DNA from: Nemertoderma westbladi
Taxonomy: Eukaryota; Animalia; Xenacoelomorpha
Direction of reading: 5' to 3'
NCBI GenBank assembly: GCA_032718475.1
Contig: JAUCBJ010004420.1
Location: forward strand, 1 to 64,000
Length of the DNA: 64,000 nt
Positions 11,829 to 58,700 of this stretch are shown here, one piece after another; position 1 is the stretch's first letter, and each line of letters begins with the position of its first letter. Position numbers and translations under genes: made by a program. The notes under the pieces were generated by a model, which saw only the letters and a list, made by a program, of their open reading frames with translations, ran no database searches and was not told the DNA's origin.

Positions 11829-12389
11829 TGTTAGCGAATTCAATTCCGCTAACCACCCCATAAAGTTGGCTTTAAGCAATATTGGGAGTACGAGGTTGAT
11901 TGCCAATCAACCTCATATCACCCCAATAAGCGGGGATGACAAACCCCAAAGGAACACACACAATGGGGGTCAGAGGTTATACCTCCGAGAGAGAGAATGA
12001 CAGTAGAAAGGGGAAAACACTCCCAGAGAGATGGGAGGGCGAGAATTAGGTTATCAGCCAATGGGGGGCAGGCATCCGCTGAGTAATATGGCCAAACCAG
12101 AGCAGTATATTACCGGTTGGTGTTTATTCATTCAATCACTTAGTTAGTCAGTTCAGTTAGGGTAGAACGGTAACTTTGTTACCGTCCGCTACCGTCACCA
12201 TCACTAACTGCTTTACCGGTATTCATTCACTTATGATTCAACAACTGTGTCTTTAGTTATCTATACTTTATTCTATTATTGTATTCTCCTATCATTATAT
12301 CAACAACATCAGAACTCTTTTCACACACGGCGGGGGACGTGTAAACAAAACAACCTAACAACCGGTCGGGATTCCCGGATCCCGTCACA
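11829..12389 (+). repeat. 5' LTR of B
   Basis: TG...CA; CCAAT boxes, TATA-like GTATATT at ~12104, TCAGTT initiator-like motif at ~12148; homologous to 44192-44754. Confidence 0.9.
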
Positions 12390-12715
12390 GTAACAAAAGC
12401 CAACAGCCCGAACTGACTGCCAGCCACCGATCCACCGATAAGTCAAGGATGAGTCAAGAAAGAGAGACGACACCGCCGCGGACTCCGGACGGCGACCTAA
12501 CGATCCGCGAGGCCGCGACGCGACGGTATCGACCCACGACGCCGGATCTGTCGACCATAGACGATCCGGCAATCCAAACAGAAGGGGGCCGTCTACAATG
12601 AGAGAGTGAGTCGAGAGAGGATAGAGACGAGTCGACACATGACGGCGGTCGACGTACCGATGTCGCCGGCCAGCCACAGGCCGAGGGCGACGGACGACCC
12701 ACCGGAACGGCGACA

Positions 12716-15700
12716 GTGGGGCCGCCGGTACGACGCCGGACACGGAGGGATAGAGGGGATGTCGGCGACGATGACGTCGGAGTCAGCGACCGGCTCCGAC
12801 GAGCCTACAACGCGACCCGGAAGCAACTAAGAGAAGCCAAAGGAGGGGCCAAGATAGACCATGTGAAGCTAGAGAAGCGGCTAGGTGAGTCGAATAAACA
12901 TTTTGATTACTTAGTACACATTGGGCAGACTAGCCAATGAGAGAGCGAGAGGGGTTGCCAGCGAACTGTTTGAACTGTGGGAATGCAGGGGTATGGAGCC
13001 TGGTGTAGTGTACATAGGGCCATACTTAGTCGATGCCCGGGGAATAAAATTAGTGGGTTGGAGGGGACTGCAGGAGGGCGAATCCGAGGTTAACCCCGAG
13101 GATTCGGTCTTGTCGGTCGGAGAAAATTCCGGAAAGCGGGGGAGAGTCCATAGGATGGGAAGGCGGAGGGAGTCTGTCGCAACCGATAAGTCTGCTACAA
13201 CCTCCGCAAAAGTAAGACGGGTGCTAGAAATAGATCTGGCATGCCAGCTCGATCTGGCGGCGCTAGACCAGAGAGAATTAGAGAGACAGTTAGAAGAAGG
13301 GAGTGCGTTATTAGAGAAGGAGAAAGAACTGGCTAGAGAGAACAGAGAGAGAGCCGAAAAGGTCGCGAGAAGCTTTAAGGAGTGTGAGGAAATAGGGAGG
13401 ATGGAAAGGAAGGAGCGAGCAAGTGAACGTAAAGAGCATGAGGCGAGAGAGCAGAATAGACGTGAAGAGCGTGAGGCGAGAGAGCAGAGTGAGCGGAAAG
13501 AGCGCGAGGCGAGACGACTGGAGAGAGTTGTGAGAGAGGCGGAGTTAGCCAATCAGAGTTCAAGAGAGGATAGAGAGAGAGAAATACCGGGAAAGCGTGT
13601 GCGGGATGATATGCACGCCCGGTTGAGGGGGCTTATGCAATATCAAGCCACACAGAAGCGCCGACTAGAACTGGCACAGATGGGGCTGTCAGAGAGCGAG
13701 GCTGGCTCGAGTAATATTTACGAGGAGCCAGGAGTTAGGGAAACATTTATTAATACCGCACTTACAGGGACCGGACGACAGACCCAAGACTGGTATGACT
13801 GTACGGGCGGGGGGGGGGGGGGGGGGGGGGGGTAATAATGATAACAATACAGTAGATGACGTTAATATTAATAGTACCGTAGTGGATAATTCTAACCAAA
13901 CTTTCATTGCAGGAAATAATATTTTGCCCGACAGTAGTAATTTAGATCCGAACGATTCTAATATAAATGTACAAAGTAGTCCGAATAATTCAAATAATAT
14001 AATTACGCAAAATAATTCAAATAATAATCCCATTTCAAATTCTAATAATTCTAATAATTTAATTAATTTAGAAGATTGAATTGATTTAACAGATAATATT
14101 GGTACTGGTGCTATTAATATGAACGTGGCGGATGTGCATAGCCCGGCAAATGAGGGCCTGGTAGGCCACGTAGTCAGTAGCAGGAAGTGATGGGGTTGAG
14201 CCAACCCGAGGGGGGCCTGGTAAGCCACGTAGTTAGTAGGCAGGAAGTGGCGGGGTTAAGTCAACCCGAGGGAGGCCTGGTAGGCCACGTAGTTAGTAGG
14301 CAGGAAGTGGCGGGGTTGAGTCAACCCGAGGGGCGCCTGGTAGGCCACACAGTAGTAGAGGGAGAGGCGGAACCCCACAACGAGAGGTTAGCGGCGAGAG
14401 GGGGGGGGGGAGTGAATGCCCCACAGGCGTCGGCGGACAAAGCGCGGGGCGAATTAGGTGAACCGCAGCACCCGGCGATGGAGAACAGTAGGGGGGTTGC
14501 GAGAATCCCCAGCGGCGTGCGACCGAGTAGAGAGAGAGAGGTTGACGTCGCAAGAGGGCGAGCGATGAGACGTTGAGCCCAGTCAGAAGAGGGAAGAAGA
14601 ATGGTGGAGTTTAACCGGGAGGTCGACGAGAGATCTCACGACCGGGGATACTGCACTGCAGAGAGAAGAAGGGAAGAGAGTAGAAGAAGTGTCGTCGTGA
14701 ACGACAGGAGAGCAAGGACGGATAGTGAGCCGTTGGTAGTAGAGATGGAGACGGAGAGTCAGTGGGGTCGAACTCAGGGAGATTGCCGTCGTCCCGGAGA
14801 GACGCGACCTGACGAGGTGTACTATACACCGAGAGGAGGGTACAGGGTGTACCGGTACGAGGACGAGAACAGTAGAGGGGGTCGAAGAGAAACTTCCCGA
14901 CGGGATCTACCTACCGATCGAGAATACGGTAGCCGCGGGGAGTATTATTCGAGAAGATTAAACTTCGATCCCGAGCGACACATACAGACTGCAGGACATA
15001 CTGTAGGCCTTACTGCACATACTATAGGCCATGCTGGCAGCGATAATGTAGGCGAAAGGGTGGCGCGGACTACGGGATTAAACCCGGAAGTCGCGGAGTA
15101 TATACCGGTAGGTAGGCCAGAAGTGGATAGGCCTATACCAGTACCAGCACAGCAGTATGACTACAGCATGCAAGAACATAACATATATCCAGGGGAGGGG
15201 AGAATTATTGCGGATAGGTGCATGGGCCCCAATATATTAACATCAACCCCAGTATCAAACATACCGGTGGGGGGGGGGGGGGGGGACAGGGTGACATTCC
15301 CCCATCACTATATCAACAATATACTCCAATAGGAACAAGAACATCGAACCCTTTGGACGAAAACAGGTCATGCGACACCGAGATATGGAGGGGGCCGCTA
15401 CCCCCTATGACATACCCAACACAGAGAAGTGCAGCAGATAGGACGAACGGACCGCACCCAACGGCAGAATCTGTACAGCATCCATCGAACCCATTGGAGG
15501 CACAGGCGATGGGAATGGCTACATTAATCTATGCCTTAAAGACCAGGATCGAACTGCCACCTGTAGAGCCATTTAAATTCGATGGAAGTAGGCCGGAAGA
15601 ATACCTGCAGTTTCGGCGCATGTACAGCAATGAAATATTGACGAAGAACCTGACGCAGGCGGAGTGCCTAAAATATCTGCAAGTTTATACAGGAGGCCTA

Positions 15701-17384
15701 GCATACGACATCGTGAGGCAGTATCAGGGCATCGAGGGCGGCTTCACGACAGCATGGCGGGCGCTAGACAGGGAGTACGGGCACCCAGCCAAGATCATCC
15801 GGCAAACCCTGAGAGGTATAACATCGGGTGGCCTACAGGATAACCCCGTTAGCATAAAGACATTTGCAAACAAAGTTGAGAAGGCGCTAATCGTGTTAAA
15901 GACGCTGGACGCACCATACGAACTCAACGCGTCTAATAACATCACCACGATAGCGCAGGCACTACCAATATGGCTGCGCAACAAGTGGAGGAAGATTGCT
16001 TTCTCCACTGGAGACAGGAAGGGTGCGGAACCGGGTTTAGAAGAAATGTCGAGCTTCTTAAACTATGAAGCTGAACTAATAACGGACCCAGTCTATAGCG
16101 AGGATAGCCTGGGAAAGGGACCAAAGACCGATTACCACAGGCCGAAACCAGAACACAACGCGTCGAACGCATTGCCAAAACTCAGACAGTCACTGTCGTA
16201 CGCGGCGACGCAGGGGACTGCTAGTCCACAAGTAGCCGGGGGTAAGACCACATCATGGAGCGGACAAGAGAAAAATAACAACACAAATAAACATAACCCC
16301 AACACGCCCAGTAGGCCGAATCCAAACAATAAGAATAGTAGGGACTTTGGTACAAACGTAAGTGCGATATGCAGCGCACTGTATAAGGACGGCTACAACC
16401 CAAAGAGCAAATGCCAATTACATACAAATGCACTTCATCAGACCATGAACTGCAGGTACTGGCAAGCGTTACCCAGGGAAGATCAGGTAGAATACGTGAG
16501 GAGGAATGAAGTTTGTTCTCGGTGTGTGACGGGTGGACATAGAGCCGACCAATGCGAAGAAACGCCAATTAAATTCGGTCAAAGTAAAGGGCAGACGATG
16601 GCGACAAGCACCGTAGGGGCGAAGAAAAGAGGAACGGTACTACTCGGGGTAGTACCGGTAAGGATAATCGGGGAAGGCTATCGATCAGTAACCACACTGA
16701 TGCTGGTCGACAGTGGAGCAGCCTTCACATTGGTTGAGAATTGGGTGGCCGAAGAGATAGGATTGAGAACGAGGCCAAGTAGAATGGCGGTAACAACCAT
16801 CTCCAGCAAAGATGAGGTCCTGGAGATGAGGACCGGACGGTGCGGGATAGCAGCGATAGCACCGGGATGCGACTATGGGGCGACCATCGACCCCATCCAG
16901 GTGATAGAGTCGATAAATATCAACGCCAGGCGACCAACCAACATCTAGGTCGAACAATATAAATTTCTGGACAGTATCGACTTCTCAATCCCAGAGGTGG
17001 ACGTTAGGAAGGTATCCATCATGGTAGGAATGGACTGCCCGATGGCCCACTAGAGAATCCAAATGGTCTTCGGCGAAGAAAGGCAGTGTGACCCGGTGGC
17101 GATTTTAACACCATTCGGGTGGACGCTGAGCGGCCCAATTAAGAGCAAGATACCATTTAGGATGTCGGAGACATCAGGGTGCATGTTCGTGGGAACTATG
17201 CGAGAGATGGGAGATGAGAGAGCGGAGGAGCAGCACAGGAGACTGCTCAGGCAGGATTTTGAGGGATTGAAAGAGACCGGGTTCGGAACCTCGGTAGAAG
17301 ACAAGCAGGCTTTATAAAGCATAAAGGAGTCGATGAGATGTGACGAGGGGCGGTATACCATAGGGATGGTATGGAAACTACCAA
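12716..17384 (+). pseudogene. gag: B gag-protease (coiled coil, N-rich region, BEL gag domain, Cys/His knuckles, aspartic protease)
   Basis: LPPVEPFKFDG...CLKYLQVYTGG, CQLH...HQTMNC, CSRCVTGGHRADQC, LVDSGA, TPFGWTLSG. Frame breaks at poly-G runs; stops at 16946, 17051 and 17315. Confidence 0.85.
14152..14350 (+). repeat. 60-bp tandem repeat (~3.3 copies) in B gag
   Basis: Repeats peptide GLSQPEGGLVGHVVSRQEVA. Confidence 0.85.
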
Positions 17385-19282
17385 TATTCGAAGAGACAGT
17401 AACAATACCTGCAATATCTTACTGTAAAGTTTGCGAATCAAATCATAATCAGACCTTCTAACCAAAACAGTAAACTCCAAGTAAGCGAATATGTATATAT
17501 TGCAGTATCGGTCTCTTATAACCGGTGAGGCAGAAAACAGTCTACGAACGGACAAACTTCGATAAAACAAAATCCCGCGCAGCGAATCCTAAAATCAGGC
17601 TCACTCACTGATGGACTAAGGGGCTCGTATACTTTGCCGCGGTGTGATTTATATGGTTGGGCGAAAGGGACGCTAGCTACGTGCAGAGATTTGGAGATGT
17701 CTAACTAGCGGGCAAAGTGCAGTACGGACAAAAGTTAATTTTATATATTTTGAGGTGTAAATAATTTCTAACGCGCGTGTGTTAATTCTGAACCGTCAAG
17801 ATCAGTTTTGCTCCTTCATATATATAATTACTGGGTACGGTGTGCATTTTACAAATATTCTAATTTTGTAACTTATAGGGCCAATACTCACGAATGATAA
17901 GGCTCCTTCCCCTCTTGCGTATTTCCAGGACTCAAATTCAGGCATAAGATTAATGCTACGCCCAGAATTCGGCAATTTTTATTTACCAGGTCCCTAATAC
18001 TAAGAAGAAATGTGTTAGTTTACTACAGTAGGCGTACAATTACTAATAGCTAGCCTGGCGTCCTATCTAGAATTTTGGTTACCTAGGTGGGCTTGGTAAC
18101 TTCCTATCAGGATGTCGGCGGGGACACGGTAGATGTTAGTATCCCTAATTAGCCTCAATTTATTTGCGCCTAGTCGTAAACTGCCCTACCGCCTGAACGG
18201 TACAATCCTAATTCAGGTGAAACACAGTAACCCTCCTAGCCTACAAGTTCTAATGCAATGGACACCGTTGTACTACAAATAGTCGCAGACGCACCTGTAC
18301 TTAGCAAGAGTTAGGCGTACAGTTTGCTGCACCCTACCAATGTGTATGCTTTGTACCGGTGTGCCTACGTCCTATCTGCGTACTAGTATCTCTGCCTGCT
18401 CTCCCCCTCCTCCCGTAGGAATATGAAGGTCTACTGCGGTTTTTTCCTGAATTAAAACAGTACAGTCCCTAGATGTAATTTTAGGCGTACAGCGTGTCAC
18501 TACCTCTACCTTCGATCTTTGGTCTTATACTTAGGTAGCAAGGCATCGAACGCTGTCTAACCTTTCAGGCGATGGGCGAATAACTAAGATGATATTGCGG
18601 GTTGTCTCCTGTCTACATTCCTTAGATGTTCCCGTTCATTGCTGCGGCCCGATGTCTAGCCAGCCATCCTGTCCCTCAATTGAGTTCACCGTGGTGAAGC
18701 ATAGTAAAACAGATAGAAAAGGGCAGATGTGACAAGTATTTCTAACTTTTATTACAAAATCAAACAATAACTATTATACAATAAACAGAATAGCAAGTAA
18801 CAGTGATGTAGCGTGACGATTGTAAGAAAGAATAACTAATGAACGAAATCGCACCTTTTATACCAAATTTGTGCCACAATCAATCGAGAAAATTCTCGAT
18901 TGTTCTATAGGTTCTAACAGCTTTTTAAAGATAGCTATTGGTCCAGCAAATATATAACTTGTACGACATTGGTTACAATCTAATAACTACAGTCTTATTG
19001 GTTAACCTTACTTCGAGCAAATGCAATTAATTTGTAGCGGTCAATTTAAATGAGTTGAAATTCTGCACAAAAAATAATTCGCACCTACTAGGATTCGAAC
19101 TCAATACACCCTACATATAATTTCCAACGCTCTACCGACTGAGCTACTGAACCACTTGACTAATCATCGTTCAAATAGATATAGCAAATACAAATGAGGA
19201 CTTAATGTAATCTTTAGCAAAGTTAATTCGAATAAAATAAAAATTTTGAAAATCCACGGCATCTAGAGAATATAATTCTATA
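17385..19282 (-). repeat. 3' LTR of Y (1898 bp, ends TAT...ATA)
   Basis: Preceded on the minus strand by PPT TTTTCATGGAGCGG; carries ~208 bp (17974-18181) absent from the 5' copy; TATAAAAG at ~18855-18862. Confidence 0.95.
19080..19153 (-). promoter_or_regulatory. tRNA-like A/B-box cassette in LTR Y (second copy 39138-39211)
   Basis: Minus: GGTTCAGTAGCTCAGTCGGTAGAGCG...GAGTTCGAATCCTAG followed within ~15 nt by TTTTTT. Confidence 0.65.
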
Positions 19283-20102: not shown

Positions 20103-23100
20103 TTATCGCTTAGTGGATCGAGCCCTGCCGCGTCCTCGAAAACTGCGCACAGGTGACTTTGCTCGCGATATGGGACTCGTGGGGCGAGTCACTGGTTTCG
20201 TTTGGACGTTGGGAGACGGTGCGACCGTTTCCTCACAAATTCGTCTATGTGGTATCCCAAAACCTCGACCGATTCCTCGTGACCGATCAGTTGTCACTAC
20301 AGTTGGTAAAACGTCTGGGAACGCGCGGGAAGCGGACGACGCAGACACAAGAGTAGCTTGCGCCCCCTTTTGATCAGCTGGTGTATGTCCCGATCCTCCT
20401 GTTGGTTCTCTAGGAAGCGATACCGTATCCCGAGTAATTCGAATGGTAGGCTCAACTCCCTTGCGTTCTTCTATATTAATAGACTTCTTTAATTGTTGGC
20501 TCACTTTCTGGACCCTTATGATCCTACCCTGTCCGTCCTCCCGAGGGTGACGTGCAGACGGCGCAACCGGAGTGGCTGGTATGTCGGTCGCCTCTAGGAT
20601 CTCCTCTTCCTCGAATACGCTCGCTCGTATACGTTTGTACAAATACTTAGCTATGTTATCTTTGTTACCATACCTGATGTTTAATGTATCCCATACTTGT
20701 CTTAATCCTTCTGGATGTCCAATAAACTTTAACGCCATTAAACTGGGAGGTCCTTCCAAACACTTGATGAGGAACCTAAGTTTCTCTCCGTTAGATAGTA
20801 CAGAGTTTTGTATGCTATCTTTGTAATATTCATTGAAAGGTAGCCATTTCATCTCATCTCCATTGAATTTAACGATCTCTCCCACTTTGACCGCTTGGCG
20901 GGCTTCTGTTCTAGCCATCTGACGCGTAAAGCTTTCTTGGGCCATCGTGTTATTTAATATCGAATTATCGGTATATAAATTTCTCGGATCATTATCAGGT
21001 CTATAGGGAACATCATTAACAACAGGTCTATAATCACCCTTAATAGGGTTTGCTATAGGAGTTTCTACTTCACTAGCAGTATAGATGCGTGTAGGCTCCA
21101 CACCTTGCGCATGTAATACTTCAGACCTAACAGGTTGACACAATTTTACAGGGGGTATTGGTATCCCTTTTTGTATATTGACTAACTTGTCGCGTTCCAG
21201 TGCGATACTTTGCTGCACTTCTTGCAACTCTGCCCTACCTTCCCTTACTGTTCCCTTAAGTTGGTGGACAGTCTCCTGCATCTGTCCGAGCAGGAGGTTC
21301 ATCCCCCGCCGTCCCTCCTCTACCCACTCGACCGCCGAAGCGGGAGTCGCCAACATTGTAGCGGGCCGACGCTGGACGACGGGAGACAAATCTTTGATTT
21401 CTCTCTCTGCTATCAGGACAGGGATATTCTCATGGACTGTTCTACCGGGTACAGGCAGTGTAGTACTATGTAAAGGGAATTTAGAGTTAAGCTCTGGAAG
21501 TACAGGGGTCTCTAACACAGAAGTGACTTTGGGAACGACAGGCCTAATTATTTCAGGCTCATCAACTATTGTAGGGAGTCTTTTGACCTGAATAGTTTGG
21601 TATGGGGGTTCCGTACTACCTAAGTCTGTGCTAGCTAGCTGTCTTCTAACAGCTGGGGGCAAATCAGGCAATTTGTGACGGTGAGATGTTTTTCTACGCC
21701 TGCTTAGACGAGATCTATTTCCTCCGCCTTCAGGATCGGTGGTTTCGCTTTCCTCCGATGATGTGTATCCCTGGCGTTTGGGAGTAGATCGTCTCATCAT
21801 CTGCATTTGACTAGCAGTTAACTGTTTATTTATGTTGTCTTGCGTCTCCTGCAGATTTTCCAACTCCAGTTGGGTAGTCTCCTCAGAGGCTCTCCGTTCT
21901 GCTTCTGCCACTGCCTTTGCTGCTTTTCTTTCTGCTTCTGCTTCTGCCGCCGCTGCCTTTCTTTCTGCTTCTACTTCTGCCGCCGCTGCTTTTCTTTCCG
22001 CTTCCACTTCGGCCATTGCCGCTGTTACTGCAGCTGCCGTTCGGTCCTCTATCCGTTTTTTCTTTACTAGTTCTTCTTGGACTCTAGTGAGGTGAAGTTT
22101 TTCATCAAACTCAGCTTGGTTGGCCGCTAACATTTCAGCATCGATTGAGTCTAACACACGCTGGGTTCCTTCACTATTAGGGGAAAGTCCAGACAGCCGT
22201 CTCCTCAACTCTTCGTCTCCTAGGAATCGCTGATAGTCGAACAGATATATATCGATGGCGTCTCTCATTTGTGGTCTCTCTGCGGTCTCTTCACCTTCCA
22301 CTTGAGAAAGGGTGACACCGGTTGGTTTTTTATAGGTTAGTCTCTCAGACAGCTGGGATTTCCACTGGTCCGTTTCTTGTACTTTGAGGCCTACCCGCTG
22401 GAACCAAGTTTTGACAGTAACCTGCAGCGACGTGTCCTGTCTTCTTTTGGAAGTTTCCTCAAAGGCTGAGAGGATTAATCTAATGCGTAAGGTTCTTTCG
22501 CGTACTTGATATAGCAGCTCTTCCTGCTCTTGAGGTCTTTGGGGTTGTCGAAACAGTTGTTCTTCTAATCGCTCCAAGGAGACGAAGAATCCCTGCACAT
22601 ATCCTGCTGCCGACCTCTTCCAAACAGCTGGATCCATCGTATCTTTAGCCACTCCCATCCTGTGTATATCTTCCCAAGTAGCTTCGGACAAATCTAACGG
22701 GAGTCCGGGTCCGGGAAAGTTCCATTGTGACTCGACAATAGACATCAATTCTTCCCTGGCGTATCCCGCATAATTATCTTGGGTCGCTCGCTTATTTCTC
22801 GCCCAATCGGCTTGATGTTCATCCACCGCAATCAATATAGTAGTTAGCACTGCGGCAGGAAGGGTGAGAAGGGGGTCCGAGTAGGCTTTAACAGCCATCT
22901 GCAATCCGCGTTCGGGGGTCAGCTCGACAGTATCCGAATTACTGGAGCTATCGGATCGCTGGGAACAAGTTTCTTGACAAGGCTGTTGCTGCTGTGGGAC
23001 AGCTGCTTCCTGGTTCCGTTTGACTTGGGCCCGAGTGCCGATGATAGACCTACGGTGTTGGATTAGCTTAGAGTCTGATACTTCTACTGGAGGGATGACC

Positions 23101-23216
23101 TTTCTTTCAGTAGGAGGTGAGCTGAACTCCTTTCTTAATCGCTCCACACTCCTATCTGTGTCACAGATGGTTGTATCGATTAGACTGTCTGACAGGTTTT
23201 GCTGGGTGTCAGACAT
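20103..23216 (-). CDS. gag: Truncated BEL gag of element Z fused in-frame to a basic low-complexity tail
   Basis: 1037-aa ORF with coiled coil and KFNGDEMKWLPF...EKLRFLIKCLEGPP gag domain, which breaks off near 20620; no knuckles or pol follow. Confidence 0.75.
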   Translation of the reverse strand: MSDTQQNLSDSLIDTTICDTDRSVERLRKEFSSPPTERKVIPPVEVSDSKLIQHRRSIIGTRAQVKRNQEAAVPQQQQPCQETCSQRSDSSSNSDTVELTPERGLQMAVKAYSDPLLTLPAAVLTTILIAVDEHQADWARNKRATQDNYAGYAREELMSIVESQWNFPGPGLPLDLSEATWEDIHRMGVAKDTMDPAVWKRSAAGYVQGFFVSLERLEEQLFRQPQRPQEQEELLYQVRERTLRIRLILSAFEETSKRRQDTSLQVTVKTWFQRVGLKVQETDQWKSQLSERLTYKKPTGVTLSQVEGEETAERPQMRDAIDIYLFDYQRFLGDEELRRRLSGLSPNSEGTQRVLDSIDAEMLAANQAEFDEKLHLTRVQEELVKKKRIEDRTAAAVTAAMAEVEAERKAAAAEVEAERKAAAAEAEAERKAAKAVAEAERRASEETTQLELENLQETQDNINKQLTASQMQMMRRSTPKRQGYTSSEESETTDPEGGGNRSRLSRRRKTSHRHKLPDLPPAVRRQLASTDLGSTEPPYQTIQVKRLPTIVDEPEIIRPVVPKVTSVLETPVLPELNSKFPLHSTTLPVPGRTVHENIPVLIAEREIKDLSPVVQRRPATMLATPASAVEWVEEGRRGMNLLLGQMQETVHQLKGTVREGRAELQEVQQSIALERDKLVNIQKGIPIPPVKLCQPVRSEVLHAQGVEPTRIYTASEVETPIANPIKGDYRPVVNDVPYRPDNDPRNLYTDNSILNNTMAQESFTRQMARTEARQAVKVGEIVKFNGDEMKWLPFNEYYKDSIQNSVLSNGEKLRFLIKCLEGPPSLMALKFIGHPEGLRQVWDTLNIRYGNKDNIAKYLYKRIRASVFEEEEILEATDIPATPVAPSARHPREDGQGRIIRVQKVSQQLKKSINIEERKGVEPTIRITRDTVSLPREPTGGSGHTPADQKGAQATLVSASSASRAFPDVLPTVVTTDRSRGIGRGFGIPHRRICEETVAPSPNVQTKPVTRPTSPISRAKSPVRSFRGRGRARSTKR

Positions 23217-24539
23217 GTTTAGCTATACAGTTGAATGCTTACTGCTATAGTTACAATTAAAGCAAGTCTAGTAATTCAGTATGACCGTTAGCCTAGTACC
23301 GGTAATTTATTGCAGTATATTAGAATACCGGTATGCACTTATAATATATATAAGTATTGTAAACTAGTTTTGTCACAGAGTACCGGTATATAAATTTAGC
23401 ACAAATATATATAAATATATAATAGGCCTATCGTGAATACCGGTATACAGCTTACACTTATAGTATATATAAGTATAATTATGAACTAGAATTAATTACA
23501 GAATACCGGTATGATTTTAGCTCAAATTTATAGAAATAAATATAATAAGCCTATGGTAAATACCGGTATGTCAATTATTTTAGAATAATTGAATTTCTGA
23601 ATATTTTAGGGTTACTTGGTTACTTTAACTTACTTTATTACCGTTATTTAAGCAGTAGTCCAACTGATATTGAGACCTAGTTGTTGTATGGCAGGCCTAC
23701 TATTTATAAATCGTTTGAGTTGATTTATAATAGATATATACCCGTTTAAAAGGGGTTTTGTCAATATTTGAAATAAATGTTATTATTTCTGGGGGAAGTC
23801 ACTACACAGAAGCTGTGCGCTCTCCGTGAAGTGCTACCTATGGGACACTAAAACAGATAATTCTAATTTACCTAAGTTACTTAATACTACAAATTGCTTA
23901 CGATACGGGTGAGATTAAATCTCTAATTAAACACAACAAAATATTACGTACGAATTTTTAGGGTAATTTTACAGGAAGTCTACAAACCAGTCTAACAAAG
24001 GGTTAGAATTCGGTTTATTACAACGGACAGGGTACTACGGTATTTGAAAATAATAAGTAGTAGTAAATATATTGCACTGTCCAGATAGGAAAATACCACC
24101 GCCTGACGACCTATAGCCGTATCGCTATAGGTACTACGTTATGTATCACGGAGTGTTCCTACCTAGAAGTTAATTACCGCGGACTACCAGATCCAACGTG
24201 CCTATTAACCACTTTACAACACAAATATACTGCCTACACACTAATTACTTTCGGAAAGCACTGTACACTAAACCCTAAATTAGGTACAAGTACTGGTACA
24301 ACAAATAATCAGTAGTTAAATATACTTGAACATTTAAAAGAACCACGGCATCTGCTGGAGTGACCGAAGCACAAAGTCACCAGTCTTTTCCTACGCCAAG
24401 CAGTCCGTGTAGTACCGGGGTTAATTTAACTATAACGGTATGTGTAACAAACACAATTACTGTAGGAATAAACTTGGGGACATGAATGTTGCGAATAATC
24501 GCATAAACTCTGAATAATAAATATTACGCTACCCGTACA

Positions 24540-25410: not shown

Positions 25411-26707
25411 TTCTACTTTATTGCTTACTGCAATAAAGTCAATAACTGTTATTGTACGCGCTTTTGAAGACCTTTAGCAGTTTAACCTGCCAAAATTTAT
25501 ATGTCTTTTGGTTTATAAATAGACTTTAGAAGATGACAAATATTTAATACCAATAAACACAACATTAGCAGAAGCCAGCCTAGTGCGCGTCCATTCACCC
25601 GCTGGATATACCCGCGGGGCTGGATTCTGAGGGCTTAGATTATTATTGCAGTGTAAGCTTACTGTATTATTCGATTGATCGTTAATAAATAATTTCTGAC
25701 TAATATTATTCACTTTCGGGAAATATTAACAGTTCCTTTAGGACGTGGCGCTCTATCTAGGTAAACAGAGATATGACTTATACTAATCACAACGGCAAGT
25801 CGGTAAGGCTTATGATTCACGTATGAGGCGCATTCTTTAGGAAATGCTTAGTTATCAATCACAATCATGCACACTACCGGTAACACACAATACTGCCCAC
25901 TAATTTGCCGACCGTCAATGATTTTTATCATATATAAAGAGAACAGCAACGGACCAATGTAGTGCTTATCAAATAGCATTAAATTCACTACAAACACAAT
26001 AATATAAGTCGCAATCGCTATATATAACCCGTCTCTCTAACCTGTAGTGTATCAAGAAAATTGGGAAATTTGGGTTCTTTATATATGTTCTCCAAATAAC
26101 AATATTCAACCAAAACACAACAGTAAATAGCATTAAGACGGTAGGTTAAGATGGTAACACTGTTTGACTGGACCGATATGTGATATGATATGTTAAGATA
26201 ACAGTTATACGCTCTATAATTTAAGCCTACTAATGTTTCTTCTAAAGTATGAAAACGAATTGACTCTAGAGCCGGTGTTCCTGGCCTAGATAGCAACAAC
26301 ACAACAGTATGACAAAAACAGTAAGACTGAACACTCCTAGTATGATCGGCCGAAAAGCTCCACATCGACAGAAAAAATCGCTCTGATTGGCTTAAGCTAA
26401 ACAAAGAACCATGTGTCCAATGGCTGTTTCCATGTCAGCAACCAGCTGTTAGATGTCGTAATATGAATCATCACGGCTAAGCTGTGTAAAGGTATTTGGT
26501 ACATTGCGGGTTTTTTGCCTTACCATGTCCGCCAAAACACGTATATAGAGGAATGACTTTTATGTCCGTTAAAACACCTATAACGGTACCTTGCGGGCGA
26601 GGGGCAGGGGAATATATATATAGTTAGAGAGCCTTTTAGAGTATTCCAGCGCCTGGGGGGAAACTGGATTGCGAAGCAAAAGGGCCAGTTATATCCCACA
26701 GAAGCTT

Positions 26708-27394
26708 TTACACCTCGTCCAGCGTAAGTTCAAATACATCGGGTTCAACAACTTTAGGTGGGTAAACGACAGTTTCTCCCGCCTTTGGTCCAGTCATAGC
26801 AAACGAATGATATGGATTTGATAAAGGATACCCTCCTTCCTGGTAGCGTAGTTGTTGATGGTTCGAACACCTCGCCAATATCGGTTCAGGATTTTCCTTA
26901 TTCAAACGCATTGGAATCGCATTTCGTTGTTCGCGCATACAAGAACCGCATTGATAATAAAGTTTATACACTGAAAATGCTTCCTTGGTTTCTCTATCGT
27001 CCCCTCGTGTTCGTCTGTAAAGATGCATTCCATCGAATTCATCTCGTACCGCAGGCATAGGTTCGTGCGCCTTTAGGTATTGCATGGTATGATACAAACG
27101 ACTAATTTCAGTATTGGGGTCTTCGCTAATGTCTCCCGTATCACACAAAGCATCGTACGGGTAAAGTTCATTGAAGGTTTTGCGCAAACTTTCGATTCTT
27201 TCATTTAATGCGTTTTGCCTTCTCTTTAATACATTTGAGTCATATTTAGTTCTCGCGAGTTTCGCAGTACTTTCTGATAATTCTTTTATACCAAATATAG
27301 TGTAGTCCTTGGCTCCAAATCTCTCGAATGGCGCTGCTGCTTCCTCTTGGATATCATATCCCCATCTCGGCTCTCCATGTATCTCCTTCTCCAT
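26708..27394 (-). CDS. N-terminal part of the Y accessory ORF, cut by LTR Z
   Basis: EISRLYHTMQYL...PAVRDEFDGM...KLYYQCGSC...RCSNH is homologous to 51-608 and 51375-51794; the stop codon lies in the first bases of LTR Z. Confidence 0.75.
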   Translation of the reverse strand: MEKEIHGEPRWGYDIQEEAAAPFERFGAKDYTIFGIKELSESTAKLARTKYDSNVLKRRQNALNERIESLRKTFNELYPYDALCDTGDISEDPNTEISRLYHTMQYLKAHEPMPAVRDEFDGMHLYRRTRGDDRETKEAFSVYKLYYQCGSCMREQRNAIPMRLNKENPEPILARCSNHQQLRYQEGGYPLSNPYHSFAMTGPKAGETVVYPPKVVEPDVFELTLDEV

Positions 27395-28056: not shown

Positions 28057-31000
28057 TTATTTACTAACATTAGTTGGAGATTTGTAGTCTCCAGACTCGT
28101 TACGAGTCTCTTCAAGAAGTACAATACGTTGAGTCAGTCTGTCTACTGTACGACCGTCAATTGTCCGTACCGTCACAGTTCTTGTTACTCCATCCATAGA
28201 TGGATGTGTGGCTAAAATTACACCTGTTATCCAGAAGCGTCTTTTTAGATTCACTTCCGCTAACAGCACGTGATCTCCCGGCTTTAATGCGCGGGTGTTA
28301 TTCTACCAGTTTGCTCTGGCAGAAATAGAGGGCAAATAATGGTTTTGCCATATTTCCCAGAATTTGTTAGCTAGTAGTTGCGTGATTTTCCACGCTTTTC
28401 TACCGTAGCTGTCGCTTTCTGTTGGAAAAGAAATAGGCGTCAAAGTAGTCGGTGCCTGCATAAGCAGGTGTGCCAGTGTTAAAGCAAACTGGGATTGTTT
28501 GTCATCGGGTACTAATACTATTGGTCTAGTATTTAGTATTGCCTCGATTTCAACAAACAGTGTTGTCAGTTGGTCGTCTGTCAAAATGTGGTTTACTGGA
28601 ATGACCTTTGCCATGGCTGTTTTTATAGATCTAATCAATCTCTCCCAGACTCCGCCTCTCCATGGACTATCTGGAGGATTAAACTTCCAAACAATCTTGT
28701 AAGGACGTAGTTCGTTTGAGATTTGATCATGATCTAATTTCTTAAAGGCTCTAGCAATTTCATTTCGGGCACCAACAAAGTTTGTCCCTTGGTCTGAGTA
28801 CAAGCATTTTACTAGTCCGCGTCTAGCGATAAATCGCCGCAGTGCTAGTATAAACGCGTTGGTGGAAAGATCCATCACACGTTCAATGTGAACTGCCCTG
28901 CTGGACATACATGTGAAAATCAGTCCCCAGCGTTTTACTAGTATACGTCCACGTTTCGTATGTATGGGACCAAAGCAATCAATTCCAGTCTCTGTAAAAG
29001 GTGGTCTGAATGCTTGAAGTCGTGCTTGTGGAAGTTCACTCATTTCTTGGGTACCTATTCTAGAATGTACCTTTTTACAAATAATACACGTACGTGTCAC
29101 TGAACTTAACGCTTTACTGGGTCTAATTAATACAAATCTTGTACGTAAGTAGGAAAGACAGTGGTGTCTTCCAGCGTGTTTCAGATGTAAATGTGCGTCC
29201 AGTATCATTGCAAGTTGTAGTTCGTGATGCTGCGGTATTATTATTGGGTATCTAAAGTTTGTGTTAAAGTCAATGTTTTGAAGCCGAGATTTATGACAAA
29301 TTAAGCCATTATAAATTATCGGACTCCAACTCAATATTGGTGACGACTTGATTGGTTGACCTTGATTTATAGATGTGAATTCGCGTGCGAAATATCGCAG
29401 TTGGTAATGGCGAATTAATTTAATTTCACACCTGTCAATCTCAGTCAATGTAAGTCGACGTGTAAAGTCGCGTTTGCCTTTAACGTATTGTACAAAACGT
29501 ACAATCCACGCTAATTTTCGGCACGCGTTTGTCCAAGAATCTGTTAAGTTTACAATACGGTCGACGTAAGTATTTGTGACGTCATCAGGTAAGTCAATGG
29601 AGAATTTGGAAGGTTTTGATTTACTAGAAGGGCCCACGGGTCCGCCGGTAAGTATTCCCTTGTTGACTGTTGATCCGTCCGGGTCTACAAGTAATTTGTC
29701 CTTCCTTGTTTTCTTACCTTGATTGTCGGTACTTTGTAAGTCGATCGTTAATGGTGGTTTGAACTCTATGGGGTCACTAGGTTTCGGTAAACTTATTTTT
29801 CTGCCGATATTAATCCCGGGTCTCACCATAGGTTGCAAGTTTGGTATGTCTCTTGAGCGCAAAGTAACACCTGTATTTACATTAGCGTAGGTACTACCCA
29901 CATCTGTAATACATGAGGTTTCACTGTGCTTATGGTTGCTCAAGTGTGTCAAATTTGGTAGTTTGTCAATACAAGGCCGCTCCAATAGGGAAACTGCGGC
30001 TTTACTATTTGTCAATATGTTACTAGTGTCTGGTAGAACATTTTGTGACATGTCTGGTAAAATGTTTCGTGGAACATCCGGCGAAATATCTAGTGACGTG
30101 TCTGGCAAAACGTCTGGTTGACCGTCTAGTAACGCGTCTGGTTGTTTGTCAATAGAAGGCCGCTCCAATAGAGATACTGCGGCTTTACTATTTGTCAATA
30201 TGTTACTAGTGTCTGGTAGAACATTTCGTGATATGTCTGGCAAAATGTCTGGTTGACCGTCAGTAACGCGTCTGGCGATAAATCTGGTAACGTGTCTGGT
30301 TGATCGTCTGGCGATATGTCTGGTGTAGAAAGGCTCGCAAGTCTTCCGTTCTTGACCTTTGAAGTTATATCCTTCCATTTCGCCTTCGGTTTTTTCTTGA
30401 GTTTTGCCGTCGTCCTTTTCTTTGCTTTCCCTTTCTTTGGTTTTTTAATTTCCGCGTCTTTAGGGATAGTGTTAGACTTGTTGTCGTATAGTGGCGGCCA
30501 ATGTAGTGTTGATCTTTGCAAGAATTGTGGTCCGTGCTGACAAAATTCTTTGTTTTCCGGTTTACAGAATTCCTTGGGCATCATTCCTCGCGACGCAATA
30601 TCAGCTGGATTTTGTGGTCCGGGACAATGTCGCCAATCTTCCTTTATTGAACGGTCTAAAATTTATGCGCGACGGTTAGCTACGAATGTCTTGAATTCAA
30701 GTGTGTCGTTGTTTATGTAAAATAAAACCAACGTCGCGTCAGTCCAATAAAATATCTATAAACTTGACTGTAGTTCCGTCTGTATAAGGTTCACGATTGT
30801 GGTTGACAGGGTTGCGGCTTGTAGCTCAGCTCGTGGTGTCGTCATATACTTAGTAGGCATGGTCTTGGCCTTAGAAGTAATGAGCGAAACATCGAACTCT
30901 TCTGAGTCTACTTGTCTGCGCAAGTACGCTGCCACACCAAAGCCGTTGTCACTGGCGTCGGAAAAACAATGTAATTCCAAGTTGTCAGGAAACGTCGTTT

Positions 31001-33426: not shown

Positions 33427-33480
33427 TTCGCGGAATAGTCGACAACCTCTCAGTTTATGGCTAGTATGTCGTTTACCTAG

Positions 33481-36840: not shown

Positions 36841-37651
36841 TTCGGTAGTTGTAAGTCAAGTAAAATGTGAGTGTCAAAGTATCAAATTTACCGTATTTAT
36901 ATTTAAACGGTACTAATTACAGTCATATAAAATTAGCCTACCGGCCGATTTTATAGCAGATGGATAAAATTAGCCTAAACGGCCAATTTTACAGCAAATA
37001 AATGTCACGGAATAAGTATATAATAAAATTAGCCTAGCGGCCAATTTTATAACAAATAAATCGGATAACGATATGCGTTATCAAAAGGTAAATTAAATAC
37101 AATAATACGGACTAATTCAGCAATGAACAAAGAAATCGTACAGAATGCATAAATACTTGAGACAGTGGAACCCACAATAATTTTAACTAATACGGTAATG
37201 CCTAACTTATTTATGCAACTTTTCGAACTCACCCACTCCAATAATTCTCCAGAAAAACAGATTCCCAGATACAAACCGGACGTGAACCTTTCCGTTTCCA
37301 GCGTTGCGGACGAAGTGCGATTTTCCCAACCAAAGTTGTTGAGTTATCTATCTCCCAAACTTGCTAAACACGGTCTTGCTCCCGTTACAGTCTAGAAATG
37401 GGTTCTGAATCCTGAAAAACAAAAGAGTTAGGTTTTACTTTTACGAAAATTTTGTACCGGTACAATATGGTATTTAAACCCTTTTAAACACCGGTATTCA
37501 ATTCCAAATAATTTTACACGCGGTTCAAATCAAAATTTTATTTCAAAAAATTAGCACTTAGCCAATCAAATATAAACTTTTACCTCAAAATACAAAATTT
37601 TCAAATAACTTTAGTCCTACCGAACCGTAGTTCAGTAAAACATATTCCTAC

Positions 37652-42300: not shown

Positions 42301-42597
42301 TACTGGAGGAGGTGGGTCGAAGAATATCTACCCACGCTTCATAGGAGAAGCAAGTGGAGAAATACAAACAGGGAGTTAAAGGAAGTGATCGTCACGGACG
42401 ATACCATCATCAACAACCAATGGCGGTTGGCGAGAGTTGTGGGCACTTACTCCGATGAGGACGGAAGAGTCCGGGAGGTGCGGATAGGTGGCAAGATAGG
42501 AGCGAAAGATAGAAAGACCTACAGGAGGGCTGTAGGAAAGTGCTGCCTTCTGGAGGGAGCACCAGTCAGTGGTTTAGTCGTCCAAGTTTTGGACTGA
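39340..42597 (+). pseudogene. pol: B pol (RT, RNase H, integrase) with stops
   Basis: YYLPLH..KLRMVVDAS, CDIEGMFNQV, FYVDD (~39935-39949), IYDPLG, HMFSDAS, HYWTDS, HKSILHGG..CQTC, VDMFGP, GTNF, CVERL. Confidence 0.95.
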
Positions 42598-44191: not shown

Positions 44192-44754
44192 TGTTAGCGA
44201 ATTCAATTCCGCTAACCACCCCACAAAGTTAGCTTTAAGCAATATTGGGAGTACGAGGTTGATTGCCAATCAACCTCGTATCACCCCAATAAGCGGGGAC
44301 GACAAACCCCAGAGGAACACACAATGGGGGTCAGCGGTCATACCTCCGAGAGAGAGAGAATGACAGCAGCAAGGGGAAAACACTCCCAGAGAGATGGGAG
44401 GGCGAGAATTAGGTTATCAGCCAATGGGGGGGCAGGCATCCGCTGAGTAATATGGCCAAACCAGAGCAGTATATTACCGGTTGGTGCTCATTCATTCATT
44501 CACTTTAGTTAGTCAGTTCAGTTAGGGCAGAACGGTGACTCTTAACACCATCCACTGCCGCCATCATCAAATCAGCAGTATTCAGTATATTACCCTTTGA
44601 TATCAAATAACTGTGCTTATACTTCATCTCACTTACTATTATATTCTCATATTCATATACCGATCAATAACTTCAGAACTCTTTTCACACACACATGGCG
44701 GGGACGCGTAAATAAGACACCCAGGATAAACCGGGACTCTCGGATCCCGTCACA
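44192..44754 (+). repeat. 3' LTR of B
   Basis: TG...CA after the PPT; U3 near-identical to the 5' LTR, R-U5 clearly diverged. Confidence 0.9.
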
Positions 44755-44782
44755 GTGATCCCGACTGACATGTTGGTGTATT

Positions 44783-55725: not shown

Positions 55726-55738
55726 ATGTAATAAAATC

Positions 55739-58700
55739 TGTGACGGGATCGAAGATCCCGAACGGGTTGATGTTTTACGCGTCACAGTTCTACCACAGGG
55801 ATGCTGGGATGGTGCTAATAACTTGGCCGATGCCGTTGTAGGAAAACAATGAGAGTCTGGTGTTGTCTCTTTGATATCATAAATAATAATAGCACAATAA
55901 CTTATGGTAGAAGTACAGATGTGATGGGTACCGGAATGCTGTATACGATGACGGTAAACAACTGATACCGATCTGCACTAACTGAGTAACTAACTGAGTG
56001 TACCAACACAAGAACCTGGGATAATATATGATTGGTACACCCTACTCATATCCCGGTAGTGCCCATCTGGACGATTCTTATCCCGCAGGATACGAGCTTT
56101 CACAATAAATCCTGAACACCGCCCTGTTGTTTAATGACCACACACTTATCGGGTCCCACACATGTGTGCACCATGTTAGTGGGATCCGTCTAAGTCTCGT
56201 CCTGCTATTCTAGTCAATTAGTCCCCAGTCCCAGTAGCTAATTGGAAAAAGGTTGTACTTGACTATGGTATATATTATATAATATATATACGAATTATAT
56301 ATAATAATTAATTATTATAATTATATATTATATATATTATATCGTCTACATGATGCGTCTTAACCCCCCCCCCCCCCCCCCCCCCCGCTCGGAGGTGATA
56401 TGACTCGTCACTCTCGGTCTCGCCCGTTTCATTCTCTCTCAACCTTTCTCGCCTGGCGACTTCTTCCAGTCGCTTCTCCTCAAGTCTATCCGCTTCCAAC
56501 TTCTCCCACCTCTGTTATGGTGTATCCACCTCCCTCAATGTTGTCGTAGGCAAGTATGATGTCTTAATTTTATTTTATTCTACCTATGTTCCCCCTGTCT
56601 GCGCTATTATCCTATCTACCTTTCTAGGTGGCGCCCTTAGTGCCCACAACTTCCATGGTACTATGTGCCCTGCTAATATATGTACCCAGTACCCTGCTTT
56701 GTACCCCTCTCTTACTACGTGGCGTTTTCGGTGCCCACAACCCCTCTGCTTCTACTTCTATGGTATATTGTGCTCTCTACTCTCTTATTGCTAACTCTAC
56801 TAACTCTACTAACTCCACTAACTCTACTAGCTCTACTAACTCTACTAACTCCACTAACTCCACTAACTCTACTAACTCTCTAACTCTACTAACTATCTAA
56901 CTCTCTAACTCTACTAACTCTCTGACTATCTAACTCTACTAACTCTCTAACTCTACTAACTCTCTACCTCTACTAACTCTCTAACCCTACCAACTCTCTA
57001 ACTCTAACGGTACTATGTACCCTCTTACTCCCATGGTATGTTTATATACCACACTCCCCATACTTATAACTCTAACGGTACTATGCCCTCTTACTCCCGT
57101 GGTATGTTTATATACCATACTCCCTAACTTCTAACTTAACTCTTACGGTACTACGTACCCCTTCTACTCTCGTGGTATGTTTATATACCACACTCCCTAA
57201 CTTATAACGGTACTATGTACCCTTGCTGCTATTCCTATGTTATATTTACATTATGATTATTGGGATTATTTTGTATATTTGAATTTAAATTATTATTTGA
57301 ATTATTTTGTGCGTTAAAATTAGGGTTATTATTTTGTATATTTAAATCAGGATTATTTGGATTTAAATTATTATTAAGGGGTAAAACGTTATTTCCTGCA
57401 ATGAAAGTTTGGTTAGGGTTGTCTACTACAGTACTATTAATATTAATGCCCTCTAACGTATTATTATTACCCCCCCCCCCCCCCCCCCCCAACCCATACG
57501 GTTACACCAGTCTTGGGTCTGTCGTCCGGTGCCTTAAGTGGGGTATTAACAAATGTCTCCATTACTTCTGGCTCCTCGTAAATACTACCCGAGCCAGCCT
57601 CTCTCTCAGATAATCCCAATTGCGCCAGTTCTAGTCGGCGCTTCTGCTTGGCCTGATATTGCATAAGCCCCCTTAACCGGGCATGCAAATCATCCCGCAT
57701 ACACTTTCCTGCTCTCTCTCTCTCTCTGTGAGCGTATTCAATTCCGCCACATCAAGCCCCATAAAGTGAGGTTTAAACAATATTGGAACTACAAGGTTGA
57801 TTACCAATCAACCTTGTATCACCCCAATAAGCGGGGACAATAGGCCCCAAGGGAACACACACAGCGGGGGTCAGAGGTTATACCTCCGGGAGAGAGAGAG
57901 AGATAGCAGCGGGGGGGGGGGGGAAGCACACCCAGGGGATAGAAGGGCGACAACAGGGTTATTAGCCAATGGGGGGAAGGCATCGGCTGAGTAGTGCAGT
58001 GCGGCCAACCGTGCAATATATATTACCGGTCGTTGTGTATTCCATTCAGTTATCTCAGTACAGTCACGGCAGTACGGTGACAATTAAGACCATCATCGCC
58101 GTCACCAACTTACTGTATTTTACAGGTACATTCAGCTATCTCAGTGCATTCATGCTATCTGTTACTTCATTGTATACTATATATCTTATTACCAAAGAAC
58201 GTCGGAACAACAAGCAAACACAAACTATTTTCCATCGAACGGTGCGGCCCTTGACGCGTACATAAACAACACCGGATAAACCGGGATCCTCTCGGATCCC
58301 GTCACAGTCTTAATTTCTAAGAGCTGCCGAACTGTCTGAGTTGTGAGTCTTAACTCACAACAGTCTTAATTAAGAGATTAAGAGACGGGCACATAGGGTG
58401 CCAGATAGTAGAGTGGTTCTGGGCACCGCAAGCGCCACGTAGTTAGAAGAGTGGGTAGAGTTAGAAAGTTCTAGTTAAAGGGCTAGAGAGTTGGTAGACT
58501 TAGAGGGTTTTAGTTAGAGTTAGTAGTAGAGGGGTCGTGGGCACCCTAAGCGCCACGTAGTTAGAAGAGTTGGTAAGAGTTAGAGAGAGTTAGTAGAAGT
58601 AGAGAGTTAGTAGGAGTTAGTTAGACTTAGTAGAGCTAGTTAGAGTCAGAGAGTTAGTAGAGAGTTAGATAGTTAGCAAGTAAGTAGTAGGTAGATAGTA

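What the first reader, a model, noticed from the sequence alone, without database searches (positions are those of the whole stretch)
12175..58315. BEL/Pao elements with no tRNA PBS: all four 5' LTRs have a self-complementary primer site (candidate self-priming system)
Seen: the bases directly after each 5' LTR do not begin with TGG but are the exact reverse complement of a word inside that LTR. B: GTAACAAA (12390-12397) vs TTTGTTAC (12175-12182). Y (minus): GTAGGAATATG (37651-37641) vs CATATTCCTAC (38484-38474). Z (minus): ATAACAGTTAT (25452-25442) vs ATAACTGTTAT (26208-26198). C: GTCTTAATT (58307-58315) vs AATTAAGAC (58082-58090). The words differ between families while pairing is kept (covariation), and in all four the duplex ends exactly at the last LTR base. 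Known: BEL/Pao elements normally prime on host tRNA; self-priming is established for the Tf1/sushi group of Ty3/Gypsy, where the first ~11 nt of the mRNA anneal to the PBS. Inference: the element RNA supplies its own minus-strand primer. Unlike Tf1, the partner word seems to lie internal to the transcript, roughly 40 nt (B, C), 120 nt (Z) and 400 nt (Y) past the apparent start, so an internal cut or 3' trimming would be needed. I do not know of this being described for BEL/Pao.
Basis: partly seen in the sequence, partly recalled or inferred. Interest (0 to 1): 0.93.

Follow-up and report, generated by a model that had tools for sequence, protein, structure and literature searches.

The report
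BEL/Pao retrotransposons primed by own LTR
Four jumping genes of the BEL/Pao group in this animal DNA lack the usual tRNA landing site and carry in its place a short word that pairs exactly with their own terminal repeat, and in many relatives from other animals that partner word forms only when a predicted intron is spliced out, so these elements likely start copying themselves with their own RNA.

Summary
Observation confirmed. All 4 word pairs are exact, start at the first base after a defined LTR end, and none begins with TGG. The chance per element is 0.00025 to 0.014. Sister LTRs B and C carry different words at the homologous site, each matching only its own primer site.

The trait is widespread. 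Of 18 BEL/Pao relatives from other hosts with a defined LTR end, none has TGG and 16 beat every control: 14 match a predicted exon-exon junction of a GT..AG intron inside the LTR (10-15 nt), and 2 match a contiguous word as in this window. A blind scan gave 22 of 61 loci against 6 of 708 control pairs.

Best reading: the 5' leader of the element's own RNA pairs with the primer site, is cut, and primes reverse transcription. The window's elements are likely intron-less forms. No RNA data exist here, so start site, splicing, cut and priming are all inferred. B alone is weak (8 bp). It works like Tf1 but is not Tf1. I did not find it in print in 10 searches. This scan noted the same trait earlier in other genomes.

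The parts
11829..12389 (+). Element B 5' LTR (TG..CA)
   Evidence: Repeat with 44192-44754, TSD TTGAT/GTGAT
12175..12182 (+). B predicted primer word TTTGTTAC; its 3' C pairs with the first base after the LTR
12390..12397 (+). B primer-binding site GTAACAAA, no TGG
12146..12154 (+). B leader segment complementary to 12410-12418 (second helix; 7 of 300 by energy, 337 of 2000 by alignment, so uncertain)
12367..12384 (+). Hairpin just before the LTR end, kept with different loops in B5', B3', C and D
15218..16948 (+). B gag-protease piece (DUF1759, aspartyl protease)
40001..42597 (+). B RNase H / integrase pieces beyond the nested Y element (Peptidase_A17, Integrase_H2C2, DUF5641); frames interrupted
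44192..44754 (+). B 3' LTR; 330 of 350 identical to the 5' LTR before the word, 94 of 145 in the stretch from the word on; different word TCTTAACAC at 44540-44548
57727..58306 (+). Element C 5' LTR (non-coding, TRIM-like member of the B family); TATA-like box 58017, initiator-like TCAGTT 58046
58082..58090 (+). C predicted primer word AATTAAGAC, at the site homologous to B's word
58307..58315 (+). C primer-binding site GTCTTAATT
58054..58072 (+). C leader segment complementary to 58324-58340 (second helix; 0 of 300 by energy, 25 of 2000 by alignment)
59080..59645 (+). C 3' LTR after PPT; TSD CTCTC; same word as the 5' LTR
55739..56190 (-). Element D 3' LTR, diverged B-family member (start approximate); fourth word variant AGTTGTTTAC at 55963-55954
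37652..39339 (-). Element Y 5' LTR, 1688 nt, TA..TA ends, nested in B
38474..38484 (-). Y predicted primer word CATATTCCTAC
37641..37651 (-). Y primer-binding site GTAGGAATATG
28303..36855 (-). Y gag-pol in several interrupted frames (DUF1759, RT region, Peptidase_A17, integrase)
17385..19282 (-). Y 3' LTR, about 98% identical to the 5' LTR plus a 207-nt extra segment; TSD TTGGT
25453..26712 (-). Element Z LTR inside Y, in 5' position; no partner LTR in the window
26198..26208 (-). Z predicted primer word ATAACTGTTAT (near-palindrome)
25442..25452 (-). Z primer-binding site ATAACAGTTAT
20103..23222 (-). gag-like ORF after the Z LTR (DUF1759), no pol
4167..5378 (+). Element A 3' LTR, sister of Z; word variant AAACTGTTAT at 4616-4625

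Best explanation
These are BEL/Pao LTR retrotransposons whose primer-binding site is not complementary to a mature tRNA end but to a word inside their own 5' LTR, so they likely prime reverse transcription with their own RNA leader. SHOWN: no TGG site; an exact 8-11 nt match anchored at the LTR end; different words in sister LTRs; in relatives from other hosts the same match, mostly across a GT..AG intron in the LTR. INFERRED, step by step: (1) transcription starts in the 5' LTR upstream of the word (about 43-47 nt before its 3' end in C and B); (2) where an intron is present, host splicing of the 5' LTR copy creates the word; (3) the leader folds back on the primer site, helped by a second helix where the core is short; (4) a nick right after the word, which nearly always ends in AC or AT, frees a 3' OH, by analogy with Tf1 made by the element's RNase H; (5) RT copies from the LTR end back to the nick and jumps to the 3' copy of the same sequence; (6) the primer is copied into the new primer site, so a changed word carries its own match along, which would explain why words drift freely between sister families while pairing stays exact; (7) splicing of the 3' copy before reverse transcription would delete the intron for good and give contiguous words like those of B, C, Y and Z.
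For: 4 of 4 exact anchored matches with low chance. B and C differ at the homologous word and each matches only its own site (8 vs 6 nt, 9 vs 3 nt); four different words in four B-family LTRs share flanking CGGT..AC|C. In other runs of the species, contig depth falls from thousands to about 20-150 just past the word and again after the primer site, joints skip exactly 12175-12299, and further words ending in AC appear in loose ends. 0 of 22 elements have TGG in the first 8 bases after the LTR. 16 of 18 relatives exceed all swaps and all 60 shuffles, 14 across a consensus intron and 2 contiguous; with any GT..AG allowed the same intron is chosen in 13 of 14. Changes on both sides are seen across junctions in sister pairs L082/L084 and L018/L034/L021. 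Blind scan: 22 of 61 loci at 11 nt or more versus 6 of 708 control pairs. The 30 loci counted positive (2 of them imperfect) form 19 clusters at 70% protein identity. A polyA-like hexamer lies 8-104 nt past the acceptor in 11 of 12 spliced relatives, leaving the overlap that strand transfer needs. Pairing starts 0-4 nt from the LTR end, inside the 0-5 nt criterion for self-primers in PMC6317226 (passages).
Against: No RNA run holds this DNA, so start site, splicing, nick and priming are unobserved. B's core is only 8 bp (-6.0 kcal/mol) and competes with a local hairpin; predicted pairing probability is 0.04-0.20 for B, 0-0.42 for C, and for Z falls from 0.94 to 0 as the 5' end is extended. B's second helix fails one of two tests (337 of 2000), and Y shows no excess extended pairing (153 of 300). 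3 of 12 spliced relatives fold without the duplex. Y's only AATAAA lies upstream of its word and the B and C LTRs have no canonical hexamer, so the 3' overlap the cis model needs is not evident in the window. L069 and L087 fail the exact test. 34 of 61 loci gave no hit in the blind scan; some are known positives cut by contig ends, and 6 of 10 re-examined stayed unexplained with undefined LTR ends. The model needs the 5' LTR copy spliced and the 3' copy usually unspliced, which is untested. The direction of intron loss rests on a tree with long branches and weak basal support.
Confidence: 0.6

Rival explanations
1. Element-derived but in trans: a separate short transcript that starts and ends within one LTR (5', 3' or solo), or the partner RNA of the dimer, is spliced, trimmed back to the word and anneals to the primer site of an unspliced genomic RNA, acting like a home-made tRNA.
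For: It explains intron retention without position-specific splicing. A polyA-like signal follows the word closely in relatives, directly after it in L082 and L084. The B family is very high copy. An A-family element carries an extra ORF resembling a 3'-5' exonuclease (atlas 0.93; a lead only).
Against: Each window site matches its own LTR and not sister LTRs, although trans priming among hundreds of copies would be expected to mix words. None of B, C, Y shows an exonuclease ORF in the window.
Confidence: 0.2
2. The pairing is real but structural: it gates packaging, dimer formation or translation (for instance marking spliced RNA), and the primer comes from elsewhere or from protein.
For: No direct evidence for a cut. 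Several sites are near-palindromes (Z; TTCGAA in L018, L021, L034), as dimer sites are. Fungal GalEa elements have a conserved hairpin of unknown role in place of a PBS (PMC5445492 passages).
Against: The duplex begins 0-4 nt from the LTR end in every positive and nearly always with GT or AT, which is where a primer 3' end must lie. No alternative primer site was seen in 22 elements.
Confidence: 0.13
3. A host tRNA fragment or another host small RNA primes, as half-tRNAs do for some copia elements, and the LTR match is secondary.
For: Half-tRNA priming is known (PMC6317226 passages). Some relatives' sites hold GTTCGAA, like a tRNA T-loop (motif recalled, not from a call). Host tRNAs could not be tested because no genome is held.
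Against: Words differ between sister subfamilies of one genome and track the LTR, including across predicted splice junctions; a fixed host primer predicts a fixed site.
Confidence: 0.05
4. Chance matches of short AT-rich words in long LTRs.
For: B alone is reached by 4 of 60 shuffles under loose rules, and Z's word is palindromic.
Against: Joint chance about 1e-11 for the four; 16 of 18 relatives above all controls; blind scan 36% versus 0.8%.
Confidence: 0.02

Closest known systems
Tf1/Tf2 of Schizosaccharomyces pombe, Tj1 of S. japonicus and the Tf1/sushi and Tcn1 groups (Ty3/gypsy); passages of PMC7175516, PMC4600332, PMC6317226
   Same: No tRNA site; the site after the 5' LTR is complementary to about 11 nt within the element's own LTR; a U5 hairpin lies next to it; a cut would be needed to free the primer.
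   Different: Different superfamily (BEL/Pao). In Tf1 the primer is the first 11 nt of the RNA; here the word is predicted to be internal. In most relatives it is built across an intron, which I did not see described for Tf1. The cut is proven for Tf1 and only inferred here.
Canonical Belpaoviridae / Semotivirus (ICTV profile PMC8742986, whole text)
   Same: LTRs, PPT, 5-nt TSD, gag with DUF1759, protease-RT-RNase H-integrase order, animal host.
   Different: The profile gives an 18-nt PBS for host tRNA-Arg or tRNA-Gly and tRNA-primed replication; 0 of 22 elements examined here have even the TGG.
TAR lineage of plant Ty1/copia, including Houba and Osr-1 (PMC6317226 passages)
   Same: Self-priming predicted from sequence complementarity outside the Tf1/sushi group.
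   Different: Copia, plants; no splice-junction partner in the passages read.
Fungal GalEa 'conserved hairpin site' and bivalve biv-TRIM (PMC5445492, PMC6934838 passages)
   Same: LTR elements without a recognisable tRNA PBS.
   Different: There the partner lies downstream in the leader and is conserved; here it lies upstream in the LTR and is variable.

Membership tests
BEL/Pao (Belpaoviridae) | BEL/Pao-type gag and pol domains in the order PR-RT-RH-IN | tested here: met
   DUF1759, Peptidase_A17, Integrase_H2C2, DUF5641 in B and Y; 409 homologs of Y RT at E<=1e-30, those listed mostly carrying PF05380. Z has gag only; C has no ORF.
BEL/Pao (Belpaoviridae) | LTRs with PPT and target-site duplication | tested here: met
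   B (TSD 4 of 5), C, Y; Z lacks a 3' LTR
BEL/Pao (Belpaoviridae) | 18-nt PBS complementary to the 3' end of tRNA-Arg or tRNA-Gly (ICTV profile) | tested here: not met
   0 of 22 have TGG in the first 8 nt after the LTR. This departs from the profile's description; the proteins still place the elements in BEL/Pao.
BEL/Pao subclade (Sinbad, Suzu or other) | Phylogenetic placement with named references | not testable with these tools
   No named reference sequences on hand; B, Y and E form long branches among 94 rows, 38-45% identical to the nearest loci
Tf1/sushi self-priming group | Ty3/gypsy (chromovirus) lineage | tested here: not met
   BEL/Pao domains
Tf1/sushi self-priming group | PBS complementary to 10 nt or more within the 5' LTR, starting 0-5 nt after it | tested here: met
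   Y and Z 11 nt; 16 of 18 relatives 10-15 nt; B and C fall short at 8 and 9 nt
Tf1/sushi self-priming group | Partner is the first 11 nt of the mRNA | tested here: inconclusive
   Start sites not mapped; promoter-like motifs and introns place the word inside the transcript
Tf1/sushi self-priming group | RNase H-dependent cut frees the primer | not testable with these tools
   Needs RNA-end mapping or biochemistry
Half-tRNA-primed elements (Osser, Bryco, Bianca, FunCo1 type) | PBS complementary to an internal part of a host tRNA | not testable with these tools
   No host genome; no tRNA in the window or loci

The most novel reading that the evidence does not exclude
A large aquatic-animal branch of BEL/Pao retrotransposons has dropped tRNA priming altogether and uses the host spliceosome to build its reverse-transcription primer from its own LTR, so that only a spliced 5' leader can prime while the unspliced 3' copy keeps the intron heritable. 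Intron-less lineages such as the four here arose from it, and their freely drifting primer words act as self-matching subfamily tags.
Probability: 0.55. Interest if true: 0.92.

Novelty: new variant of a known kind. Interest (0 to 1): 0.8.

Why it matters
The ICTV profile describes Belpaoviridae replication as poorly understood and assumes tRNA priming. If a broad branch primes itself, that description is wrong for many elements of aquatic animals, and PBS-based annotation tools will miss or misjudge them. A primer made by splicing would tie reverse transcription to nuclear RNA processing, a link I did not find described for any LTR element. It would also remove the tRNA and tRNA-fragment contact through which hosts can act on the primer site. 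The claim is cheap to test: the predicted junctions and RNA ends are exact to the base.

Tried and rejected
No genome is held for the window, so no family-wide phased test and no host tRNA test were possible. Scans of viral contigs found nothing, and a 34-letter B-family LTR pattern found nothing in metagenome contigs. No RNA holder was listed for the DNA; this is no evidence on expression. Both read-laying runs used contigs only and could not phase word with primer site; loose-end letters after the LTR were mixtures (agreement 0.5-0.65). The first anchored, unspliced test on relatives found 8 nt or more in only 2 of 18 rows (that set held L002, a duplicate of L003, and lacked L093). A palindrome or T-loop reading of those sites was dropped once the splice junctions explained them. 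An intron extending the window's own words was sought and not found. The conserved CGGT just before the B-family word is a poor splice donor, so I rejected the idea that the word sits inside an intron. Y's 207-nt extra segment does not end in AG and is not an intron. For the A extra ORF: Pfam gave only weak zinc knuckles, the PDB sequence search nothing meaningful, the homolog search nothing, the representatives search one hit, and the single-sequence fold was unusable (pLDDT 30), so no fold search was run. Literature searches found no report of self-priming or splice-made primers in BEL/Pao; searches are weak because the phrase may not match the form with a slash, and most subscription papers and Repbase notes are not searched. 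PMC554778 and PMC3118150 hold no occurrence of PBS or tRNA. Supplements were not read.
Full report
1. Observation. The four word pairs are exact at the stated coordinates. The window is a nest of BEL/Pao elements in repeat-rich animal DNA. Element B (11829-44754) is interrupted by Y (39339-17385, minus strand), which itself holds the Z LTR and a gag-only ORF. C is a 1.9-kb non-coding member of the B family. A and D are represented by 3' LTRs, and E by a truncated pol. Pfam finds DUF1759, Peptidase_A17, Integrase_H2C2 and DUF5641. The named homologs of Y's RT come from molluscs, cnidarians, echinoderms, tunicates, shrimp and fish at 38-48% identity; the host itself was not determined. LTR ends are fixed by LTR pairs and TSDs for B, C and Y, and by the sister LTR A for Z. 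In all four the match begins at the first base after the LTR.

2. Chance. Markov copies of each LTR held the anchored word in 274, 55, 5 and 26 of 20000 trials for B, C, Y and Z. In a 4 x 7 cross test each site matched its own LTR at full length and unrelated LTRs at 7 nt or fewer. Under looser rules B alone is reached by 4 of 60 shuffles and C by 2 of 60, so the weight lies in the set. Aligning five B-family LTRs puts four different words at one position, between a conserved CGGT and a conserved AC|C. That is real covariation for B versus C. Contigs from other runs of the species show a very abundant family whose depth collapses from the word through mid-U5 and again after the primer site, with the terminal hairpin conserved. 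These data are unphased.

3. Relatives. A profile search returned 78 loci from metagenomes (the best 80 kept of 563 confirmed) and 20 from MAGs. From self-comparison I took 18 of the 98 whose LTR end could be set. For L058 and L093 the end was set by a sister locus, and L002 was dropped as a duplicate of L003. None of these 18, nor the 4 window elements, has TGG in the first 8 bases after the LTR. An unspliced anchored search mostly failed. Reading the LTRs showed why: the partner is split by an intron with a GTAAGT-type donor and a pyrimidine-rich CAG or TAG acceptor. With consensus splice sites and an offset of 0-4 nt, 16 of 18 exceeded every swapped site (19-21 each) and all 60 shuffles: 14 across a junction (10-15 nt; introns 67-451 nt) and 2 contiguous. 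L069 and L087 failed the exact test and show one wobble or mismatch at such a junction. With any GT..AG allowed, controls come closer (up to 2 of 20 swaps and 2 of 25 shuffles among the positives), yet the same intron is chosen in 13 of 14. A blind scan that did not use LTR ends gave 27 of 61 loci at 10 nt or more and 22 at 11 or more, against 15 and 6 of 708 mismatched pairs. Of 10 further loci re-examined loosely, 4 gave a plausible match (3 contiguous, 1 spliced) and 6 did not. The 30 loci counted positive fall into 27 clusters at 90%, 19 at 70% and 6 at 60% protein identity, so they are related but not redundant. I reached the splice reading (note) before opening earlier findings; those report the same in other genomes and are not independent support.

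4. Anatomy of the predicted primer. In C a TATA-like box (58017) and an initiator-like TCAGTT (58046) put the start near 58048, 43 nt before the word's 3' end; B's homologous positions give about 47 nt. The leader upstream of the word is also complementary, in order, to the 15-30 nt after the primer site: for C 0 of 300 shuffles by energy and 25 of 2000 by alignment; for B 7 of 300 and 337 of 2000. Eight of 18 elements tested had such excess pairing at 5% or less, mostly those with weak cores; Y did not. The 45-nt window was chosen after seeing the folds. Folding is not uniformly favourable: B 0.04-0.20, C up to 0.42, Y about 0.9 for 5' extensions up to 60 nt and 0.08 at 100 nt, Z 0.94 falling to 0, and 9 of 12 spliced relatives 0.56-0.98. 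Y's only AATAAA lies upstream of the word, which is awkward for the cis model if the upstream TATA is the one used.

5. Mechanism. I favour self-priming in cis (0.6): the leader, spliced where an intron exists, pairs with the site after the LTR, is nicked after the word, and primes. The position of the duplex at the LTR end, the near-constant GT/AC at the priming end, a polyA-like signal downstream of the word in 11 of 12 spliced relatives and the free drift of words all fit. Copying of an unremoved primer into the new site would keep word and site matched; for Tf1 non-removal is stated in a paper title seen only in a reference list. Priming in trans by a short LTR-only RNA (0.2) differs only in which molecule supplies the word. 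Purely structural pairing (0.13), a host tRNA fragment (0.05) and chance (0.02) are less likely. The nearest loci with data in the tree (L032, L043) carry introns, which suggests loss in the window's lineage, but branches are long and support weak (94 rows, those under 40% coverage left out).

6. Comparison. It works like Tf1, whose first 11 nt pair with the PBS and are cut off by RNase H (PMC7175516 passages; PMC4600332 passages). It is not a member of that group: the proteins are BEL/Pao, and the word appears internal and is often splice-made. The ICTV profile (PMC8742986, whole text) gives BEL/Pao an 18-nt tRNA-Arg or tRNA-Gly site and calls replication poorly understood. Ten searches found no account of self-priming in BEL/Pao or of a primer built by splicing. 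The library lacks most subscription papers and Repbase notes, so prior mention cannot be excluded.

7. Verdict. New variant of a known kind; interest 0.8. The mechanism is inferred throughout and awaits RNA-end and junction data.

Noticed in passing
window 957-4088 (+): A 1043-aa extra ORF before the A 3' LTR looks like a DEDD 3'-5' exonuclease followed by zinc knuckles: atlas score 0.93 to DNA_pol_A_exo1 clusters, one homolog with the same layout (P0121, E 1.3e-6). DEDDy ORF3s are known in rotifer LTR elements (PMC5408684 passages). A role in primer trimming is speculation.
   Followed up: partly
window 3-608 (+), 26708-27514 (-), 51303-51767 (+): A second, unannotated extra ORF is shared by elements A, Y and E downstream of pol (35-43% identity); no Pfam match.
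   Followed up: partly
window 11829-12389 versus 44192-44754: The two LTRs of B share U3 but switch to a different subfamily sequence exactly at the primer word. This may be a recombinant made during reverse transcription or a later conversion; not resolved.
   Followed up: partly
window 39149-39205 (-) and the matching part of the Y 3' LTR: tRNA-like A-box and B-box motifs in the upstream part of the Y LTR (motifs recalled); no ARAGORN or Rfam hit.
   Followed up: no
window 17385 and 39339: Element Y has TA..TA termini in both LTRs instead of TG..CA, with a perfect 5-nt TSD; L053 and probably L032 and L036 also end in TA.
   Followed up: no
window 17974-18180: A 207-nt segment present in the Y 3' LTR and absent from the 5' LTR.
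   Followed up: partly
window 47900-52300 (+): A further, 5'-truncated Y-like BEL/Pao element (E), 54% identical to Y in integrase, without an identified LTR.
   Followed up: partly
window 62580-62802 and 63305-63524 (-): Two duplicated exon-like pieces that read as EGF-like repeats of a host gene (by eye).
   Followed up: no
window 7987-9145, 9179-10944, 61037-62293: Tandem arrays with periods of about 193, 63 and 54 nt.
   Followed up: no
L079-L098: Twenty contigs in bacterial MAGs of the GTDB set carry BEL/Pao elements and are probably animal-host contamination.
   Followed up: no
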